A stretch of 64,000 nucleotides of DNA, from the NCBI RefSeq assembly GCF_988242995.1, contig NZ_OZ547043.1. One strand, written 5' to 3'. Shown here piece by piece: positions 21,001 through 27,000 of this stretch. Every line of letters begins with the position of its first letter. The first letter of the stretch is position 1. The position numbers were made by a program.

Positions 21001-24000
21001 CGCGCCGTTAGCCACCAGCGTACGGCAGACGTCGCCGCCATAAAAAATGGCAATAAACAGCAACGTCAGTGGCAATAATGTTGAAAATCGCCCTTGCCGC
21101 GGTTTTACCCGACTTAATGAAATGGCCAGCAGCGCCATCAACAATGCTGTCAGGCCACGGCTTTGTCGCCATTGCAGTTCGGCATGATCGGCTGGAAAGA
21201 CGGAGCGCGCCAGCTCCGTGACCGATTTTGCTTTGCGTTTGACGTTAGGGCTTTGATCCAGCGGATTCAGATGTAATTGCAGATTACGGTAGATCTGTTC
21301 GTTGTCGTCACGCCCCTGATGATCGAGAAGATAGGCGGTCCCGTTATGCAACATAACGGTCGGTTTCTCAGGTGATGGGTCAACCACATCAACCGAACGG
21401 GCGCGGAAAATGCGGGTTCGATTGGCAGTAGAAGTATAAATCAGCGCGTCAGTCAGGCGATTATTATCCTGATCAACCGTCTGCGAAAGGATCATTCGTC
21501 CGTTATCGTTAGTGTTAAATTTCTTTGCCCGCAACTGGCGAACATCCAGCTCCGACTGTGACTGTTGCTCCAGTTGATAAATCTGCGCATAAGCCCACGG
21601 ACGACCATACATCGACAGAAGGGTGACAAAAATACTTAGCGGTATCGCCAGATAAAGAACGGCTTTGTACAAGCGTCCCGGACTGCCCCCCGCCGCAGAA
21701 ATAGCGGTAATTTCCGAGTCGGTATACATCTGCCCTAGCGTCACGCCAACTGACACATACAGTCCAACAGGTAACAACATCTCCAGTGCAATCAGCACCT
21801 TGTAGAAAACAATATCCAGCACAACATCAAGAGCTAATGTCCCATTTGCCGCTTCGGTCAGATAACGCTGTGCGGAGTAGCTGGCGAAAATAAAGATCAG
21901 AAAACCGACGATAATCAGCACCAGACGGCGCGTACCACGCATGATGTAGTGTTCAACCAGCTTCATCTCACTAACGCCCTCAATCCTTTGAATTTTTTAT
22001 TCATTGATCAGTTTCTGCGCCAGCGCAATGACATGTTCTACCTCTTCCGGCGTCAGGCTGCCGTCCTTTGCCCACTGAATTTGCCCGGCTTTATTCAGCA
22101 CCAGAATGGTTGAACTCTGCTCCGGCAACCGCCAGGCAACGCGTCCCTGTCCATTGCCGTCAATAACGAATTGCGCCCACGGATAGCGGCGTTTATTTTT
22201 TTCGATTTTGCCAACGACAAAATAGCCAGTACCAAAAATGGCATCATCGGTGTTCACAATGGTGGTGGGCTGAAAACGATCCTGCGGAAAGTTTGCCGCT
22301 TCAACCGCTTTAATTAACAGTGAGTTCTTTTTCTTCGCCGACTTACGCCCGGCGATATACTGAATAATGCGAACTTTTCCCGCCAGCTGTGTGCTGTTCC
22401 ACTTTTGGTAGTGAATTTCGTCGTCGCTATTCAGAAGCAGCTCGCCGCCTTCCTGGATATAAACAGGGGTAACCGTTTTGCCAGTGACGAAATTGTGTGC
22501 CTGCACACCCGGGGCTAAGAGCATGATAATCAGCGCAATAATCAAACGAGATGACATCATTGCTCCGGTTATAGCGGAAAACGCGAAATCAGCAGCTCTA
22601 AGCGCTGGCGAATATCGCTATCCAGCGCCACCGGTGCATCATACGACTGGCGGTTTTCCATATCATCCGCCACCATGTCGTCGTGTTTATCCCCCATCAG
22701 GCCATTAATGGCGGCGAGGAAGCGGGAAATCTGTAACGCCTCTTTATTTTCAGGATCAAGCGATCTTAGGGTGTCGTAATAAGAAACCTGCTGGCTGATG
22801 ATTTTTCGCACATCATGAAATTCCCTGCCAGTTAGTCGCGGTTTGGCAATTATCTCTTTCAGGGTATGCATTTGCTTTTGCCGATAGGCAATAAAACCGC
22901 TTACGCTTTCTAACTGGCTATGGCGTAATGAATAGTTCACCAACGACCAGACCGGAGAGCTTAAATAAACCCGTAACAGGTTGCCGTAATACGACACAAT
23001 ATTTTTCTTACCGTTACGAAAGCCGTCCTGAAAACGCCCCAAAAAAACGGTCGTTTTGCCGAATAAAAATCCGGCCTGATGCTTTTTTAAATACAGCCGT
23101 TGCGCAAAACGCAGGTGCTTGTAGCGCGCTCGCATGTATTTAAATTGTTTGCGCTCATCAGCAGTCAGCTCATCGCCTTTGGCCTGTTTGCATATTAAAC
23201 GCAGTAACTCCTGGCGATTGACGCCATTGAGCCAGAATTGCAGGCATAACGCGTAATTATCATGGATGATTTCGGTGGTACAACTTAGTGCGATAGTCGG
23301 CGGCAAACTGACCTGTGCATCAACGACATCATCTTCTTCAATCGCAACAAATAGACGCTCGCTAGCCTCAAGCGGGAAATATTTTCTCATCATCAGGATT
23401 TCTCTCCGGCTGCGTTATAAAGCAAGGAATGGCGCTGAAAAAATGCCTTTAAGGTTGGAATTAGCGAGAGCACCACATCCAGACATTGCCCAGCGAAGTA
23501 AGCAAATGCAGCCCCCAGCACGCCAAACAGATGACAGAACATGAACAGCAATACGATGTAGCCGATTGAGGCGATGGTTTGCGCCACGAGAAAAGCACGC
23601 TGTTTTCCCGCCATCAATAGCAATGACTCCTGTGGGAAGCCCAGCATCGAAATCACAATTGCGCCCAGCATCACCTGAATCAGGTCATACGCTTCGAGAT
23701 ACTTAACGCCAAACACCAGCGAAATGAGCGGCTTGCCGACGATCAACACCGCGAGCGCCACCAGAATACCGATTCCGCCCGCCAGTAAACCGGACTTCAC
23801 GCCTAACAACCACGGTCTGGTGGTGCGCGGATCTAAACGCATCACCTCTGGGTAAAAACTTTTACCCAGTAAACCCGCTGGCGTTCCGGCGGCGTCGAAG
23901 AATGTCATGGCGATTTTAAATAACCCGGCGGCAGCGGGTCCTAACACGATCCCCACCAACACTGTGCTGCACGAGTTACGTGCCGACCAGATGGAGTGGG

Positions 24001-27000
24001 CAATGTTGGTTGACCAGACAAAACTCCACGCGCCTTTAATGTGTCGGGCAGACTCAAACAGATTCAATTTGAAGGCGTTATGGATATTTCTGCGGCGTAA
24101 TTCGCGCGCGGCAAACCACCAGTACATGGTGCCGCCAACCAGATTCGACACGTACCAGGCAATAACAAAACCCGCAAAACCAAAGTCAAAATACCAGGCT
24201 ACGACGCTCCCCGCTGCGCGCAGAAAAGGTTTCGTCGCTTGCTGTACAGCAATTAGATCGAAGCGATCTACCGCACGCAGAATGCCGGTCGGCGTGGAGG
24301 AAGCCATTGAAGGAATGAGCGTGCAATACAGCGCGGCCAGCCAAAAGCTTTGGTCATCCAGACCTAATGAATGGGAAAGAAAAGGGAGTAAGGCAATGCC
24401 GCCGACAATCGCCACCGCGCCGCTGACGATATCCAGCGAGAAGGAAAATGAGACGACATTGCGGAATTGCTGCGGATTATTGTTGGTTAATGCTGGTGTT
24501 CCGTACTGCACCACCAACTGCCATGTCTGAAACTTAATAAAATCGCTGATCGACTTGGCGTACGATTGCACAATCACCAGTACGCCAAACATGGCGGGCG
24601 TCATCCCTTTACCGGCACACGAGAGCGCCAACAAACCCAGCAAGGCGCTCACGACATTACTGGAGCCTAACCAGGCGCTATTGCGAATAATGGTGCGAAA
24701 CGCGCCATCTGCAAACCAATGTTTGATGTTAAAACCCGCCAATTCAGCCTGACCTTATCGTTGATAGTAAAAAGTATCCCGCCAGCCTTAAGTTAAACTT
24801 CGGCGGTCAGAAACGATGGCAACCAGAGAAACCGCCTTCTGTGCCTGTTCCAGCACCTCGCTGTAAGGCGCTCTGGAATCAATCTCAAGAATTTTTGTGC
24901 CGTTATAGCCAATCGTCGACATGACGCCGATTTTGTCCTGCAGCTCGGCATAGTCATGGTCAGGCTTGCGGGAGATGGCAGTATCAATATCAATCCCCAA
25001 GCGAATGATTAATTCAGGACGGTATTGCGCCATTTGTTGGTATAAACGCCGTTCGCGCTGCGCCAGAAACATGCTGATTTTCCCGGTCGCACGTTCGACG
25101 CCGATCCCCGGTCCGTCATAATAAAAGCCCGAAATTTCAGCCTGCGGGAAGCGATCGCTGACCACCAGAACGCCACTTTGCGCCAGTCGCTGAACCTTGC
25201 GTAGATTCGCCATTCTTCGCAGCGAGAAGCAGTACATAATCACCGCCGCCCATAGCGCTGGAGATTTGGTTTTCATGCTTTGGGTTTTCGAGGATTTGGC
25301 CGCCAGTCGCCGTTCGAGCCAGACGCCAACCAACGGCAATCGTTTGATTTTGTCGCCGTCTTCGCCGGAGAGCAGCCCCAAATAGCGGCGCTCGGTTTGC
25401 CAGTGTTGTTGCAGCGATTTCACCAGGTCGGTGGTCAGCGTGGATTTACCGGTGCCATCACACCCGACCACCGCAATCAGCCCCGGAATGTAGTTGGGCT
25501 GCGGCACGGTTGTACTATTAACAGTTTGTGTTTGTAGTGCATCCATTCGTTAAATCATCCCCTATCCATTTTGGTGATCAGGAAAGCGCGGCGTGAATTG
25601 CGCGTAGTGACGCTTGCATAATTTCATCGGCTGGTTGCCGACCATCCAGTTCAAGGATCCTGGCGCCATTGAATGTCAGTTGCGGCGTAACGGCGATTTT
25701 TTCCTGTAACGCCGCCAGTTGATGGTCAGGTTTACGCGAAAACGCGGTTTGTTCATCAATGCCAAGACGAATCAACAATACGGGCAAATAAGACGCCATC
25801 CATTGGTACAGCTTCAGCTCGCGCTGCCTTAACATTTTTATCCAGCCGTTACCGCCCGTGGTTTTTGCCAATTGCGGGCCATCAAAGCGAAAACCCGGCA
25901 CTTCAACCTGCGGGTAGCGGTCGGTGATGAGCAGATAGCCTTGCTGGCTTTTACACAACATTTTGCGAAACTTGTACGCCCGCCAGCAGGAAAGCAGATA
26001 GATAACCAGCGCAGTAATATTGCCAGGCGGTGTTAAGGGCTTTTCGTGCACATGTGCCGCTTTACTTCGCAAATAACGCCCAAAAGGTGCGCCAATAACA
26101 GGGAGCTGTGAAATCCATTCGCCAATTCGCCCGGACGATTGCCCGAGATAAATGTGTTCTGTTGGCATTGTTGCTGCCAGTTCATTTACCAGGCTTGCCG
26201 TGAGGGTCGATTTACCTGAACCATCACATCCTACAATGGCAATAACACGCACTGGCGTGGAATTAATTATTGACATATTACGTTGATTCACGAAAAACCC
26301 GGCAGCAAATAATGTATTGAATATTACGTGGTCCGTGCTCAGAATATCCGTTCAACCTTATTGTGACAATGGTTAATTGTGACATTGACCTGAATTACGC
26401 TTTCATAAAAACATATTAACCAAATAAATATTTTTAATGGATATTTAAATTAAAGGATATATTCATGCAGTCAATAACACCTCCATTAATTGCCGTTATT
26501 GGTAGCGATGGTTCAGGCAAGTCAACGGTGTGTGAACATCTCATTACCGTTGTCGAAAAATATGGTGCTGCCGAAAGAGTTCATTTAGGAAAACAGGCCG
26601 GAAATGTCGGTCGTGCAGTGACAAAATTACCGTTGATGGGAAAATCCTTACATAAAACAATTGAACGAAATCAGGTGAAAACAGCAAAAAAATTGCCAGG
26701 ACCAGTTCCGGCGCTGGTAATTACAGCGTTTGTCGCCCGTCGCTTACTGCGCTTTCGTCATATGCTTGCCTGTCGTCGTCGCGGGTTAATTGTTCTAACC
26801 GACCGTTATCCTCAGGACCAAATTCCTGGCGCTTACGATGGTACAGTGTTCCCGCCTAACGTTGAAGGCGGCCGGTTTGTCTCATGGCTGGCAAGCCAGG
26901 AACGTAAAGCGTTTCACTGGATGGCGAGCCATAAACCTGATCTGGTCATCAAACTCAATGTCGATCTGGACGTGGCCTGCGCGCGTAAGCCTGACCACAA

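What the first reader, a model, noticed from the sequence alone, without database searches (positions are those of the whole stretch)
23393..24742. yghQ flippase-like gene appears full length here and has no in-frame ATG for its first 46 codons
The 449-aa frame starts at TTG 24742. From memory the K-12 annotation of yghQ is shorter (~355 aa), which would fit a 3' truncation by the IS5-associated rearrangement in K-12. This would be the full-length form of a multi-helix MOP-type transporter that could flip the lipid.
Basis: partly seen in the sequence, partly recalled or inferred. Interest (0 to 1): 0.4.

Follow-up and report, generated by a model that had tools for sequence, protein, structure and literature searches.

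The report
Full-length yghQ flippase gene, TTG start
This is the intact 449-codon form of yghQ, a 12-helix Wzx-like membrane flippase gene in E. coli's sphingolipid gene cluster; E. coli K-12 keeps only a broken copy, and the odd TTG start arose because the Escherichia lineage mutated the original ATG.

Summary
Window 23393..24742 (-) is an open 449-codon frame that starts at TTG. A stop lies 5 codons upstream, and the first in-frame ATG is codon 47.

K-12 yghQ (355 aa) has the same TTG start. It ends at a TAG (CAG here, codon 356) that directly abuts IS5, and 8.4 kb present here is missing from K-12.

Three details are new:
- In more than 50 orthologues outside Escherichia, the start is an ATG (sometimes GTG) at the position of E. 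coli codon 6. Every Escherichia sequence examined has ATC there and uses TTG five codons upstream. dN/dS of about 0.03 shows the gene is still under selection.
- The K-12 stop is a C-to-T nonsense mutation. It also occurs in IS5-free strains, so it predates the IS5-linked deletion, and it creates an IS5 target (TTAG).
- The AlphaFold model (pLDDT 94) is a 12-TM MOP fold closest to WzxE. A start at ATG47 would delete TM1, and the K-12 allele lacks TM10-12.

Homologues sit in or beside spt operons in alpha- and gammaproteobacteria. This fits a sphingolipid flippase role already proposed, but untested, for Caulobacter CC_1166. The function is inferred, not shown. Interest is moderate to low.

The parts
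23393..24742 (-). yghQ CDS, full length: 449 codons plus TGA. It encodes a 12-TM MOP/Wzx-like membrane protein.
24740..24742 (-). TTG, the annotated and most likely start codon. It is conserved in all Escherichia representatives examined.
24753..24757 (-). TAAGG, a Shine-Dalgarno-like pentamer. Its aligned spacing to the TTG is about 7 nt. Its TAA is also the in-frame stop that closes the frame upstream.
   Evidence: sequence read; the spacing is my own count
24725..24727 (-). Codon 6, ATC. This is the position of the ancestral ATG start, which is ATG or GTG in 50+ orthologues outside Escherichia.
24602..24604 (-). First in-frame ATG (codon 47). It lies after TM1 (residues 13-46) and is Leu in 101 of 114 family members.
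23675..23677 (-). Codon 356, CAG. It is TAG in K-12 and in LD27-1-type strains. K-12's IS5 abuts it directly.
15287..23674 (.). 8388-bp segment present here and replaced by IS5 in K-12. It holds the 5' 13 codons of yghO, aasR, cerR, acpR, spt, lptG2, lptF2, the ytfJ-like gene, the 274-aa gene and the 3' 94 codons of yghQ.
22569..23393 (-). Conserved 274-aa all-alpha protein of unknown function. Its ATG overlaps the yghQ stop (TGATG), which suggests translational coupling. It co-occurs with yghQ in all Enterobacterales, Xanthomonadales and most Sphingomonadales loci.
21997..22560 (-). YtfJ-family gene whose product has a signal-peptide-like N-terminus; same operon-like run as yghQ.
19820..21966 (-). 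LptF/LptG paralogues: lptF2 20896-21966 and lptG2 19820-20899. They are homologous in kind to the Caulobacter LptF2/G2 sphingolipid transporter.
   Evidence: bioRxiv 10.64898/2026.04.12.717747
24788..26291 (-). yghR (24788-25546) and yghS (25578-26291), paralogous P-loop proteins that are remotely dTMP-kinase-like. They lie upstream of yghQ on the same strand.
26465..27157 (+). yghT, the third paralogous P-loop protein, transcribed divergently.
15731..19785 (+). Sphingolipid synthesis operon: aasR (about 15731-17422), cerR/epi (17419-18333), acpR (18365-18613) and spt (18613-19785).
   Evidence: PMC9386255
12745..15326 (-). yghO, the homologue of the bacterial ceramide synthase/acyl-CoA N-acyltransferase. 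In this window it is split by an IS4.
   Evidence: PMC9386255
13684..15109 (+). IS4 element, 1426 bp, with a 13-bp target duplication CAACTATCTGCCC at 13671-13683 and 15110-15122.

Best explanation
SHOWN.
- Window 23393..24742 (-) is the intact yghQ gene.
- It encodes a 449-aa inner-membrane protein with the 12-TM, two-lobe fold of the MOP superfamily. Its closest solved relative is the Wzx-type lipid III flippase WzxE.
- In the Escherichia genus the ancestral ATG start (now codon 6, ATC) was lost.
- The E. coli K-12 allele is a dead remnant. A C-to-T nonsense mutation at codon 356 created a TTAG IS5 target. IS5 now sits there, and 8.4 kb including TM10-12 of YghQ and the whole sphingolipid synthesis and transport set is gone.

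INFERRED, start site. Translation most likely begins at the TTG five codons upstream. It is the only canonical start codon that keeps the conserved first transmembrane helix.

INFERRED, function. YghQ is the inner-membrane flippase of the E. coli sphingolipid pathway. It would move the ceramide-type product made on the cytoplasmic face by Spt/AcpR/AasR/YghO, possibly after head-group modification by the linked YghR/S/T P-loop proteins and the 274-aa protein. The lipid would end up in the periplasmic leaflet. There the periplasmic reductase CerR and the LptF2/LptG2 extractor encoded just downstream could act on it.
For: Structure and family:
- Pfam Polysacc_synt scores 42.9 bits against a cut-off of 28.2, covering residues 19-280.
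- The AF2 model has pLDDT 94.3 and pTM 0.91, with 12 TM helices.
- Foldseek against PDB gives WzxE 9g9n with TM-scores 0.77/0.83 and rmsd 3.6, then MurJ and MATE transporters.

Start codon:
- All 14 aligned enterobacterial homologues begin M-K-x-W-F at E. coli residue 6.
- DNA of 50+ orthologous loci has ATG or GTG there, often with a stop 2-10 codons upstream. Four Escherichia species representatives plus locus L006 have ATC and TTG at -5.
- The 86-nt start region is identical in 4298 of 4618 E. coli genomes, and no genome matches an ATG version exactly.
- TM1 (residues 13-46) carries N21 (101/114) and R/K20 (86/114). Position 47 is Leu in 101/114.
- dN/dS is 0.03 within Escherichia.

K-12:
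- Alignment and junction sequences.
- The TAG allele occurs without IS5 in 9 complete genomes. K-12 and LD27-1 are identical over nt 1-1065, and BL21 differs by 1 nt and has CAG.

Function, from context:
- Tight same-strand run yghS-yghR-yghQ-(TGATG overlap)-orf274-ytfJ-lptF2-lptG2, next to aasR-cerR-acpR-spt.
- The whole 13-gene set is syntenic across Enterobacterales.
- In Dyella and Luteibacter, yghQ follows spt directly on the same strand.
- 31-33% homologues lie immediately upstream of aasR-cerR-acpR-spt in a Caulobacteraceae MAG, in Stella and in a gammaproteobacterial MAG. This is the position of Caulobacter CC_1166.
- 50-57% orthologues occur together with yghRST and orf274 in 15 Sphingomonadales loci.

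Literature:
- E. coli BL21 Spt, AcpR and AasR are active, and YghO and Epi are proposed for dihydroceramide synthesis (PMC9386255).
- Spt and bCerS are cytoplasmic and CerR is periplasmic, and no flippase has been identified (PMC11087976).
- CC_1166 (IPR002797) is proposed as a phosphosphingolipid flippase (PMC11324152, S1 Text).
- LptF2/G2 are needed for sphingolipid transport (bioRxiv 10.64898/2026.04.12.717747).
Against: - No experiment ties YghQ, or CC_1166, to any lipid.
- All characterised Wzx/MurJ-type MOP flippases act on polyprenyl-diphosphate-linked glycans, not on ceramides.
- In Sphingomonadales the yghRST-yghQ-orf274 module is not within 10 kb of spt.
- Some distant homologues sit among glycosyltransferases (L011).
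- I could not compare YghQ with the CC_1166 sequence itself, only with positional equivalents in other genomes.
- Use of the TTG start is inferred. Initiation at the near-cognate ATC cannot be excluded.
- No sphingolipid has been reported from wild-type E. coli in the papers I could search.
- In this particular window yghO is broken by IS4, so the pathway may be inactive in this strain.
Confidence: 0.6

Rival explanations
1. YghQ is a conventional Wzx-type flippase or exporter for an undecaprenyl-diphosphate-linked oligosaccharide or polysaccharide, as its database names suggest ('lipopolysaccharide biosynthesis protein', 'O-antigen/teichoic acid export'). On this view its position next to the sphingolipid genes has no functional meaning.
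For: - Pfam Polysacc_synt and Polysacc_synt_3.
- The best structural match is WzxE.
- One 34% homologue lies among GT2, GT4 and PMT_2 glycosyltransferase genes.
- In Sphingomonadales the gene is not next to spt.
Against: - The E. coli cluster has no glycosyltransferase, initiating phosphotransferase, Wzy or Wzz gene.
- Linkage to spt operons recurs in Enterobacterales, Xanthomonadales, Caulobacteraceae, Stella and other gammaproteobacteria, in different arrangements.
- The protein scores far below the curated MOP flippase equivalog PRK10459, 35 bits against 273.
- The taxa that hold close orthologues are all known or predicted sphingolipid producers.
Confidence: 0.2
2. In Escherichia the gene is silent or decaying. 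The ancestral ATG start was destroyed, and the open frame merely persists.
For: - Both ATGs of the ancestral ATG-GCT-GGT-TTT-ACx-ATG stretch are mutated, to TTG and ATC.
- The locus has been lost or truncated repeatedly: 348 K-12-type genomes, 9 LD27-1-type genomes, and about 800 genomes with no match.
- yghO is hit by IS4 in this window.
Against: - dN/dS is 0.03 between Escherichia lineages that all carry ATC, with dS up to 0.5.
- The frame is intact in about 4166 genomes.
- TTG is conserved while neighbouring codons 2, 3 and 5 vary.
- A TAAGG Shine-Dalgarno-like element lies at suitable spacing.
Confidence: 0.07
3. The protein is a MATE-like secondary exporter of a soluble small molecule, such as a drug or metabolite, rather than a lipid flippase.
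For: - MATE transporters are among the top Foldseek hits, with TM-scores about 0.65.
- A K-12 yghQ deletion raised the chlorhexidine MIC two-fold in one study (PMC8170033).
Against: - The sequence matches Polysacc_synt, not MatE.
- WzxE gives clearly higher TM-scores (0.77-0.83) than any MATE protein.
- The K-12 allele tested in that study lacks TM10-12, so its phenotype says little.
- The gene context consists of lipid synthesis and Lpt-type lipid transport genes.
Confidence: 0.08
4. Translation starts at the first ATG (codon 47) and gives a 403-aa protein.
For: It is the first ATG in frame.
Against: - It would delete TM1, one of the best-conserved helices, including N21 and R/K16/20.
- The Pfam domain begins at residue 19.
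- All homologues align from residue 5-19 onwards.
- Position 47 is Leu in 101 of 114 relatives.
Confidence: 0.02

Closest known systems
E. coli K-12 YghQ (b2983, 355 aa, 'putative transport protein YghQ')
   Same: It is the same gene with the same TTG start. There are 18 nucleotide differences and 1 non-synonymous difference over the shared 1065 nt.
   Different: The K-12 allele stops at a TAG nonsense codon at position 356, directly next to IS5, and lacks TM10-12. The downstream 8 genes are deleted. It is still annotated and used in the literature as if it were an intact transporter (PMC8170033).
WzxE, the lipid III (enterobacterial common antigen) flippase of E. coli (PDB 9G9N/9G9P); Wzx/PST family of the MOP superfamily
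   Same: It has a 12-TM two-lobe fold, with TM-scores 0.77/0.83 and rmsd 3.6 A over about 430 columns. YghQ falls in the same Pfam clan, and Polysacc_synt is above threshold.
   Different: Sequence identity is only 17%. There is no PDB hit by sequence profile. No Und-PP-glycan assembly genes are nearby, and the gene sits in a sphingolipid locus. The substrate is unknown.
Caulobacter crescentus CC_1166 / CCNA_01224, proposed phosphosphingolipid flippase (Olea-Ozuna et al. 2024, PMC11324152 S1 Text)
   Same: Both carry the same InterPro/Pfam domain (IPR002797 = PF01943) and both are associated with aasR-cerR-acpR-spt. Proteins at the CC_1166 position in a Caulobacteraceae MAG, Stella and a gammaproteobacterial MAG are 31-33% identical to YghQ, with tblastn E-values of 1e-36 to 1e-54. 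Both are untested.
   Different: CC_1166 itself was not available for comparison. The paper predicts 9 TM helices for it, against 12 in the YghQ model. The E. coli type travels with yghR/S/T and the 274-aa gene, which the distant type lacks.
MurJ, lipid II flippase (MOP superfamily)
   Same: Shared superfamily fold, with TM-scores 0.71-0.73 normalised to the query.
   Different: From established knowledge, MurJ has 14 TM helices and is essential for peptidoglycan synthesis. YghQ has 12 TM helices and is dispensable, being absent or broken in many E. coli.
MsbA plus LptB2FGC, the LPS flip-then-extract route
   Same: The proposed logic is the same: a flippase brings the lipid to the periplasmic leaflet, and an LptFG-type complex then extracts it. 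LptF2/G2 paralogues lie 1.4 kb downstream (bioRxiv 10.64898/2026.04.12.717747).
   Different: MsbA is an ABC transporter, whereas YghQ is a MOP-type secondary carrier. The two share no sequence or fold relationship.

Membership tests
MOP superfamily, Wzx/PST-type flippases (Pfam Polysacc_synt PF01943) | Sequence match to the family profile above the curated threshold | tested here: met
   PF01943 scores 42.9 bits against a gathering score of 28.2, covering residues 19-280. PF13440 scores 31.8 against 23.
MOP superfamily, Wzx/PST-type flippases (Pfam Polysacc_synt PF01943) | 12 transmembrane helices in two six-helix lobes | tested here: met
   The AF2 model has pLDDT 94.3 and 12 TM helices. Foldseek gives WzxE TM-scores of 0.77/0.83, and MurJ and MATE transporters also match.
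MOP superfamily, Wzx/PST-type flippases (Pfam Polysacc_synt PF01943) | Conserved charged or polar residues on TM1 and in the central cavity | tested here: inconclusive
   R/K16, R/K20 and N21 on TM1, and D104 and R156, are highly conserved in 114 relatives. Their position relative to the cavity was not analysed.
MOP superfamily, Wzx/PST-type flippases (Pfam Polysacc_synt PF01943) | Genomic association with Und-PP-glycan assembly genes (initiating transferase, glycosyltransferases, Wzy/Wzz) | tested here: not met
   None is present in the 13-gene cluster. The neighbours are sphingolipid synthesis genes, LptFG paralogues and P-loop proteins.
MOP superfamily, Wzx/PST-type flippases (Pfam Polysacc_synt PF01943) | Lipid-linked substrate translocation activity | not testable with these tools
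   This needs genetics with lipidomics, or reconstitution.
NCBIfam PRK10459 'MOP flippase family protein' equivalog | Score above the curated cut-off | tested here: not met
   35.4 bits against a cut-off of 273. YghQ has no curated equivalog.
Bacterial sphingolipid locus (spt-acpR-aasR-cerR-bcerS with LptF2/G2), as described for Caulobacter and E. coli BL21/UTI89 | A bona fide serine palmitoyltransferase gene in the cluster | tested here: met
   NF047599 serine palmitoyltransferase equivalog scores 600 bits against a cut-off of 500. BL21 Spt activity is published (PMC9386255).
Bacterial sphingolipid locus (spt-acpR-aasR-cerR-bcerS with LptF2/G2), as described for Caulobacter and E. coli BL21/UTI89 | yghQ-type gene linked to spt across distant taxa | tested here: met
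   Among 80 loci, all Enterobacterales contigs that extend far enough, 3 Xanthomonadales, and 4 distant alpha/gammaproteobacterial loci have Spt (50% identity or more), AcpR, CerR and AasR within 10 kb. The 15 Sphingomonadales loci do not.
Bacterial sphingolipid locus (spt-acpR-aasR-cerR-bcerS with LptF2/G2), as described for Caulobacter and E. coli BL21/UTI89 | Direct homology to Caulobacter CC_1166 | not tested
   The CC_1166 sequence could not be obtained with the tools. Only positional equivalents were compared.

The most novel reading that the evidence does not exclude
The YghQ family could be the missing inner-membrane flippase for bacterial sphingolipids. That would make it a MOP/Wzx-fold carrier whose substrate is a ceramide-type lipid rather than a polyprenyl-diphosphate glycan. 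It would work as part of a conserved five-gene module (YghR/S/T P-loop proteins, YghQ and a 274-aa all-alpha protein with no recognisable fold relative). The module is shared by Enterobacterales, Xanthomonadales and Sphingomonadales. It may build or modify a phosphorylated head group before the lipid is flipped and handed to LptB-F2G2.
Probability: 0.4. Interest if true: 0.65.

Novelty: new member of a known kind. Interest (0 to 1): 0.35.

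Why it matters
- **Annotation.** K-12 yghQ is annotated as a putative transporter and is studied as such in deletion and overexpression collections. It is in fact a fragment missing three helices, so K-12 results say little about the gene. yghO in K-12 is likewise 5'-truncated and fused to IS5 sequence.
- **Choice of strain.** BL21(DE3), UTI89 and most wild E. coli carry the full cluster. These are the strains in which to test the gene.
- **Open question.** How bacterial sphingolipids cross the inner membrane is explicitly unresolved (PMC11087976). YghQ and its relatives are the obvious candidates. The E. coli locus, with intact and naturally truncated alleles available, makes the question directly testable.
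- **Start-codon history.** ATG changed to ATC with a TTG taking over. This is a clean small example of start-codon turnover under continued purifying selection.

Tried and rejected
- **Locus scan, first attempt.** A 10-sequence alignment (A5) worked.
- **PDB by sequence.** A profile search of the PDB with the YghQ alignment found nothing. Only fold comparison worked.
- **Distant homologues.**
  - One (P0169) had no contig on record.
  - One (P0124) lay on a contig too short to be informative.
  - P0131 and P0143 had lipid- or glycan-related neighbours but no spt.
- **RNA structure at the start.** Folding of the 103-nt start region showed nothing beyond shuffled controls (z = 0.59). I dropped the idea of a regulatory structure.
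- **Promoter and terminator scan.** It gave no more sites than shuffles. The site upstream of yghS (26369-26341) is only a candidate.
- **The 274-aa neighbour.** It has no Pfam or NCBIfam family. Its confident model has no significant PDB fold match; the best is the CHAD domain at TM 0.42 and E 0.3. I do not assign it a function.
- **YghR and YghT.** Neither has a solved relative by sequence.
- **IS5 as the origin of the K-12 TAG.** I considered that the TAG came from the IS5 target duplication. I rejected this because the same TAG occurs, with the following 40 nt of yghQ intact, in IS5-free genomes.
- **Pseudogene reading.** Rejected on dN/dS.
- **A failed call.** My first BL21 region request exceeded the size limit by one base.

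Full report
**1. The observation**

The minus-strand ORF at window 23393..24742 is 449 codons long. It begins with TTG at 24742-24740. The frame is closed by TAA five codons upstream (24757-24755), and no ATG, GTG or TTG lies between that stop and the TTG. After the TTG, the next start-type codons in frame are GTG at codon 31 and TTG at codons 34, 37 and 38. The first ATG is codon 47 (24604-24602).

The coordinates and the '46 codons without ATG' are therefore correct. A Met-free stretch of 46 residues is not statistically remarkable in itself (about 0.3 at 2.5% Met, my estimate). What matters is the non-ATG start.

NCBI's pipeline annotates exactly this 1350-nt CDS in strain PCN033, which has no amino-acid difference from the window, and in BL21(DE3). 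Of 5426 complete E. coli genomes, 4618 have a match and 4166 carry at least 80% of the gene.

**2. Comparison with K-12**

MG1655 yghQ (b2983, 3131341..3132408, minus strand) is 1068 nt, or 355 aa. It lies directly against IS5LO (3130146..3131340).

- The alignment with the window is collinear from the same TTG.
- There are 18 differences in 1065 nt, only one of them non-synonymous.
- At codon 356 the window has CAG and K-12 has TAG. The next base is the first base of the IS5 terminal repeat, GGAAGGTGCG.
- On the other side, IS5 abuts TTAA at the position of window 15283-15286.

K-12 thus lacks window 15287-23674 (8388 bp). That segment holds the first 13 codons of yghO, aasR, cerR, acpR, spt, two LptF/G paralogues, a ytfJ-like gene, a 274-aa gene and the last 94 codons of yghQ.

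The four bases flanking IS5 differ on the two sides (TTAA and CTAA). The element is therefore not a simple insertion.

**3. The K-12 stop codon is older than the IS5 event**

An 81-nt query carrying TAG at codon 356 but continuing with intact yghQ sequence matches 9 complete genomes perfectly over its full length. A further 348 genomes match only up to the junction, as K-12 does.

In one of the nine, LD27-1, yghQ continues 40 nt past the TAG. It is then joined to a 5'-truncated gspL, which is a different deletion.

K-12 and LD27-1 are identical over nt 1-1065. BL21(DE3) differs from them by one base there and has CAG.

The simplest order of events is as follows. First came a C-to-T nonsense mutation (Q356*) in a BL21-like phylogroup A haplotype. 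This creates TTAG, which fits the YTAR target preference of IS5 (established knowledge). Independent deletions then followed in the K-12 and LD27-1 lineages.

**4. Why there is no ATG**

Fourteen homologues from other Enterobacterales are 70-85% identical and 444-445 aa long. All begin M-K-x-W-F, aligned to E. coli residue 6.

At the DNA level, more than 50 orthologous loci carry a start codon at that position. They come from Enterobacterales, Xanthomonadales and Sphingomonadales. The codon is ATG in most and GTG in a few sphingomonads. An in-frame stop often lies only 2-10 codons upstream, with no alternative start.

E. coli, E. whittamii, Escherichia sp. E1V33, Escherichia sp. MOD1-EC7003 and an 88%-identical relative (L006) all have ATC there and TTG five codons upstream.

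Two Serratia species read ATG-GCT-GGT-TTT-ACx-ATG. This is visibly homologous to the E. coli TTG-GCG-GGT-TTT-AAC-ATC, so both ATGs of that stretch were altered in Escherichia.

Within E. coli the 86-nt start region is identical in 4298 of 4618 genomes. No genome matches an ATG version exactly.

The gene is not decaying. dN/dS is 0.028-0.036 between Escherichia lineages that all carry ATC, with dS of 0.33-0.52.

**5. Which start is used (inference)**

The TTG is the only canonical initiator that preserves TM1. Several observations bear on this:

- TTG is conserved in all Escherichia sequences, while codons 2, 3 and 5 vary.
- It is preceded by TAAGG at an aligned spacing of about 7 nt.
- Initiation at ATG47 can be dismissed.
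  - The Pfam domain starts at residue 19.
  - All 150 listed family representatives align from residue 2-31 of the query onwards.
  - TM1 spans residues 13-46 in the model.
  - TM1 is among the better-conserved helices. Among 114 relatives, N21 is present in 101, R/K20 in 86 and R/K16 in 71, whereas position 47 is Leu in 101.
- Weak initiation at the near-cognate ATC cannot be excluded without experiment.
- The start region has no RNA structure beyond shuffled controls.

**6. What the protein is**

- Pfam Polysacc_synt (PF01943) scores above its gathering threshold.
- No curated NCBIfam equivalog is reached. The best, 'MOP flippase family protein', scores 35 bits against a cut-off of 273.
- A profile search of PDB sequences finds nothing.
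- An AlphaFold2 model built on a 114-sequence alignment is confident (pLDDT 94.3, pTM 0.91).
- Its helices are TM1 13-46, TM2 49-86, TM3 90-122, TM4 130-157, TM5 161-184 and TM6 188-217. A short linker helix follows, then TM7 238-267, TM8 269-301, TM9 309-344, TM10 350-377, TM11 381-406 and TM12 408-435.
- Foldseek against the PDB puts the ECA lipid III flippase WzxE on top by TM-score (0.77/0.83, rmsd 3.6 A, 17% identity). MurJ follows at 0.71-0.73, then MATE transporters at about 0.65.

The protein is thus a 12-TM Wzx-like member of the MOP superfamily. The K-12 product ends at residue 355, five residues into TM10. It cannot form the C-lobe.

**7. Context and likely function**

The genes on the minus strand form a tight run:

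- yghS, then a 31-nt gap
- yghR, then a 45-nt gap
- yghQ, whose stop overlaps the next start (TGATG)
- the 274-aa gene, then an 8-nt gap
- the ytfJ-like gene, then a 30-nt gap
- lptF2, which overlaps lptG2 by 4 nt

This run converges on aasR-cerR-acpR-spt. yghO and yghT flank the region.

*What is published.*

- The synthesis half is described for BL21(DE3). Spt, AcpR and AasR are active, and ECD_02852 and YghO (ECD_02850) are proposed for dihydroceramide formation (PMC9386255).
[quoted passage not shown] They state that no flippase has been identified (PMC11087976).
- Olea-Ozuna et al. propose the Polysacc_synt protein CC_1166 as a phosphosphingolipid flippase, without testing it (PMC11324152, S1 Text).

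*What I tested.* I scanned one genome per species with a YghQ-family alignment. I then searched the 80 recovered loci with the 13 E. coli cluster proteins.

- In Enterobacterales the set is syntenic, although a few Erwinia, Pantoea and Rahnella loci lack LptF2/G2 within 10 kb.
- In Dyella and Luteibacter the order is aasR-cerR-acpR-spt-yghQ-orf274 on one strand, with yghT/S/R upstream.
- In a Caulobacteraceae MAG, Stella vacuolata and a gammaproteobacterial MAG, a 31-33% homologue lies immediately upstream of aasR-cerR-acpR-spt. This is the CC_1166 arrangement. In a Nevskia MAG the homologue lies a few kb downstream of spt on the opposite strand.
- In 15 Sphingomonadales loci a 46-57% orthologue sits in yghS-yghR-yghT-yghQ-orf274, but spt is not within 10 kb.

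The repeated, differently arranged linkage to spt operons and the restriction of close orthologues to sphingolipid-producing lineages point one way. So does the need for a flip between the cytoplasmic and periplasmic steps. Together they make a sphingolipid flippase the best-supported function. I put it at roughly 0.5.

It remains an inference. All characterised Wzx and MurJ proteins handle polyprenyl-diphosphate substrates. The substrate here could also be a head-group-modified ceramide made with the linked P-loop proteins.

**8. Rivals**

- A conventional Und-PP-glycan flippase is the main alternative. It is weakened by the absence of any glycan-assembly gene in the cluster.
- A MATE-like efflux role fits the fold less well than Wzx does.
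- A silent gene is contradicted by the purifying selection.
- A start at ATG47 is contradicted by the conservation of TM1.

**9. Novelty and verdict**

Most of it is already implicit in public annotation and in recent sphingolipid papers.

The following points came from this analysis and did not appear in the papers I could search:
- the start-codon turnover in Escherichia;
- the nonsense-first history of the K-12 allele;
- the helix-level consequence of the truncation;
- the conserved five-gene module shared with Sphingomonadales.

The practical message is that K-12 is the wrong strain for studying yghQ. BL21(DE3), with an intact cluster, is a ready test bed for an open question in bacterial sphingolipid transport.

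In this particular window yghO is interrupted by IS4. This strain may therefore not make the substrate at all.

Noticed in passing
window 13684-15109 (IS4), within yghO 12745-15326 (-): A 1426-bp IS4 with a 13-bp target duplication (CAACTATCTGCCC) splits yghO, the homologue of the ceramide synthase/N-acyltransferase. Removing it in silico restores a 380-aa ORF that is 379/380 identical to PCN033 YghO. The sphingolipid pathway may therefore be blocked in this strain.
   Followed up: yes
L093 (E. coli LD27-1, NZ_CP047594) 9976-11838; window codon 356 at 23675-23677: Nine complete genomes carry the K-12 TAG nonsense allele without IS5. In LD27-1, yghQ runs 40 nt further and is then fused to a 5'-truncated gspL. 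This is a second, independent large deletion that removes the rest of the cluster and the glc region.
   Followed up: partly
L001 (K-12 MG1655) 7044-8216 versus window 15287-15326: The K-12 yghO CDS as annotated (390 aa) extends 70 nt into IS5. Its native first 13 codons are deleted, so its annotated N-terminus is IS5-derived. yghO in K-12 is thus also a damaged gene.
   Followed up: partly
window 22569-27157; loci L013-L028, L033, L043, L053, L069, L087: A five-gene module is conserved from E. coli to Xanthomonadales and Sphingomonadales at 35-64% identity. It consists of three paralogous P-loop proteins (YghR/S/T), YghQ and a 274-aa protein. The 274-aa protein gives a confident all-alpha model (pLDDT 92.5) with no significant PDB fold match; the best is the CHAD domain at TM 0.42. 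The P-loop proteins resemble dTMP kinases only at noise level. The module's chemistry is unknown.
   Followed up: partly
window 24725-24760 and the equivalent region of L022, L034, L036, L044, L065, L070, L072 and others: Many Enterobacterales conserve the sequence ATGGCTGG followed by a T-run of variable length (4-7 T) just upstream of the yghQ start. The upstream ATG is in frame in some species and out of frame in others, so the motif is conserved for a reason other than coding.
   Followed up: no
window 24683-24768 (86 nt around the start): This segment is identical in 93% (4298 of 4618) of E. coli genomes, although the whole gene is typically only 97.5-98.5% identical to the window. That suggests extra constraint on the translation-initiation region. 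Population structure was not controlled for.
   Followed up: no
window 19820-21966: The two genes that PGAP names lptF and lptG are paralogues (LptF2/G2 type) inside the sphingolipid locus, not the essential LPS genes. A few Erwinia, Pantoea and Rahnella loci (L032, L038, L049, L068) keep the rest of the cluster but show no LptF2/G2 within 10 kb.
   Followed up: partly
literature: PMC8170033: A chlorhexidine-adaptation study reports many variants in K-12 yghQ and tests its deletion and ASKA clone as a MOP flippase, without noting that the K-12 allele is truncated next to IS5. The clustered variants beside a multicopy IS might be read-mapping artefacts, which is my speculation.
   Followed up: no
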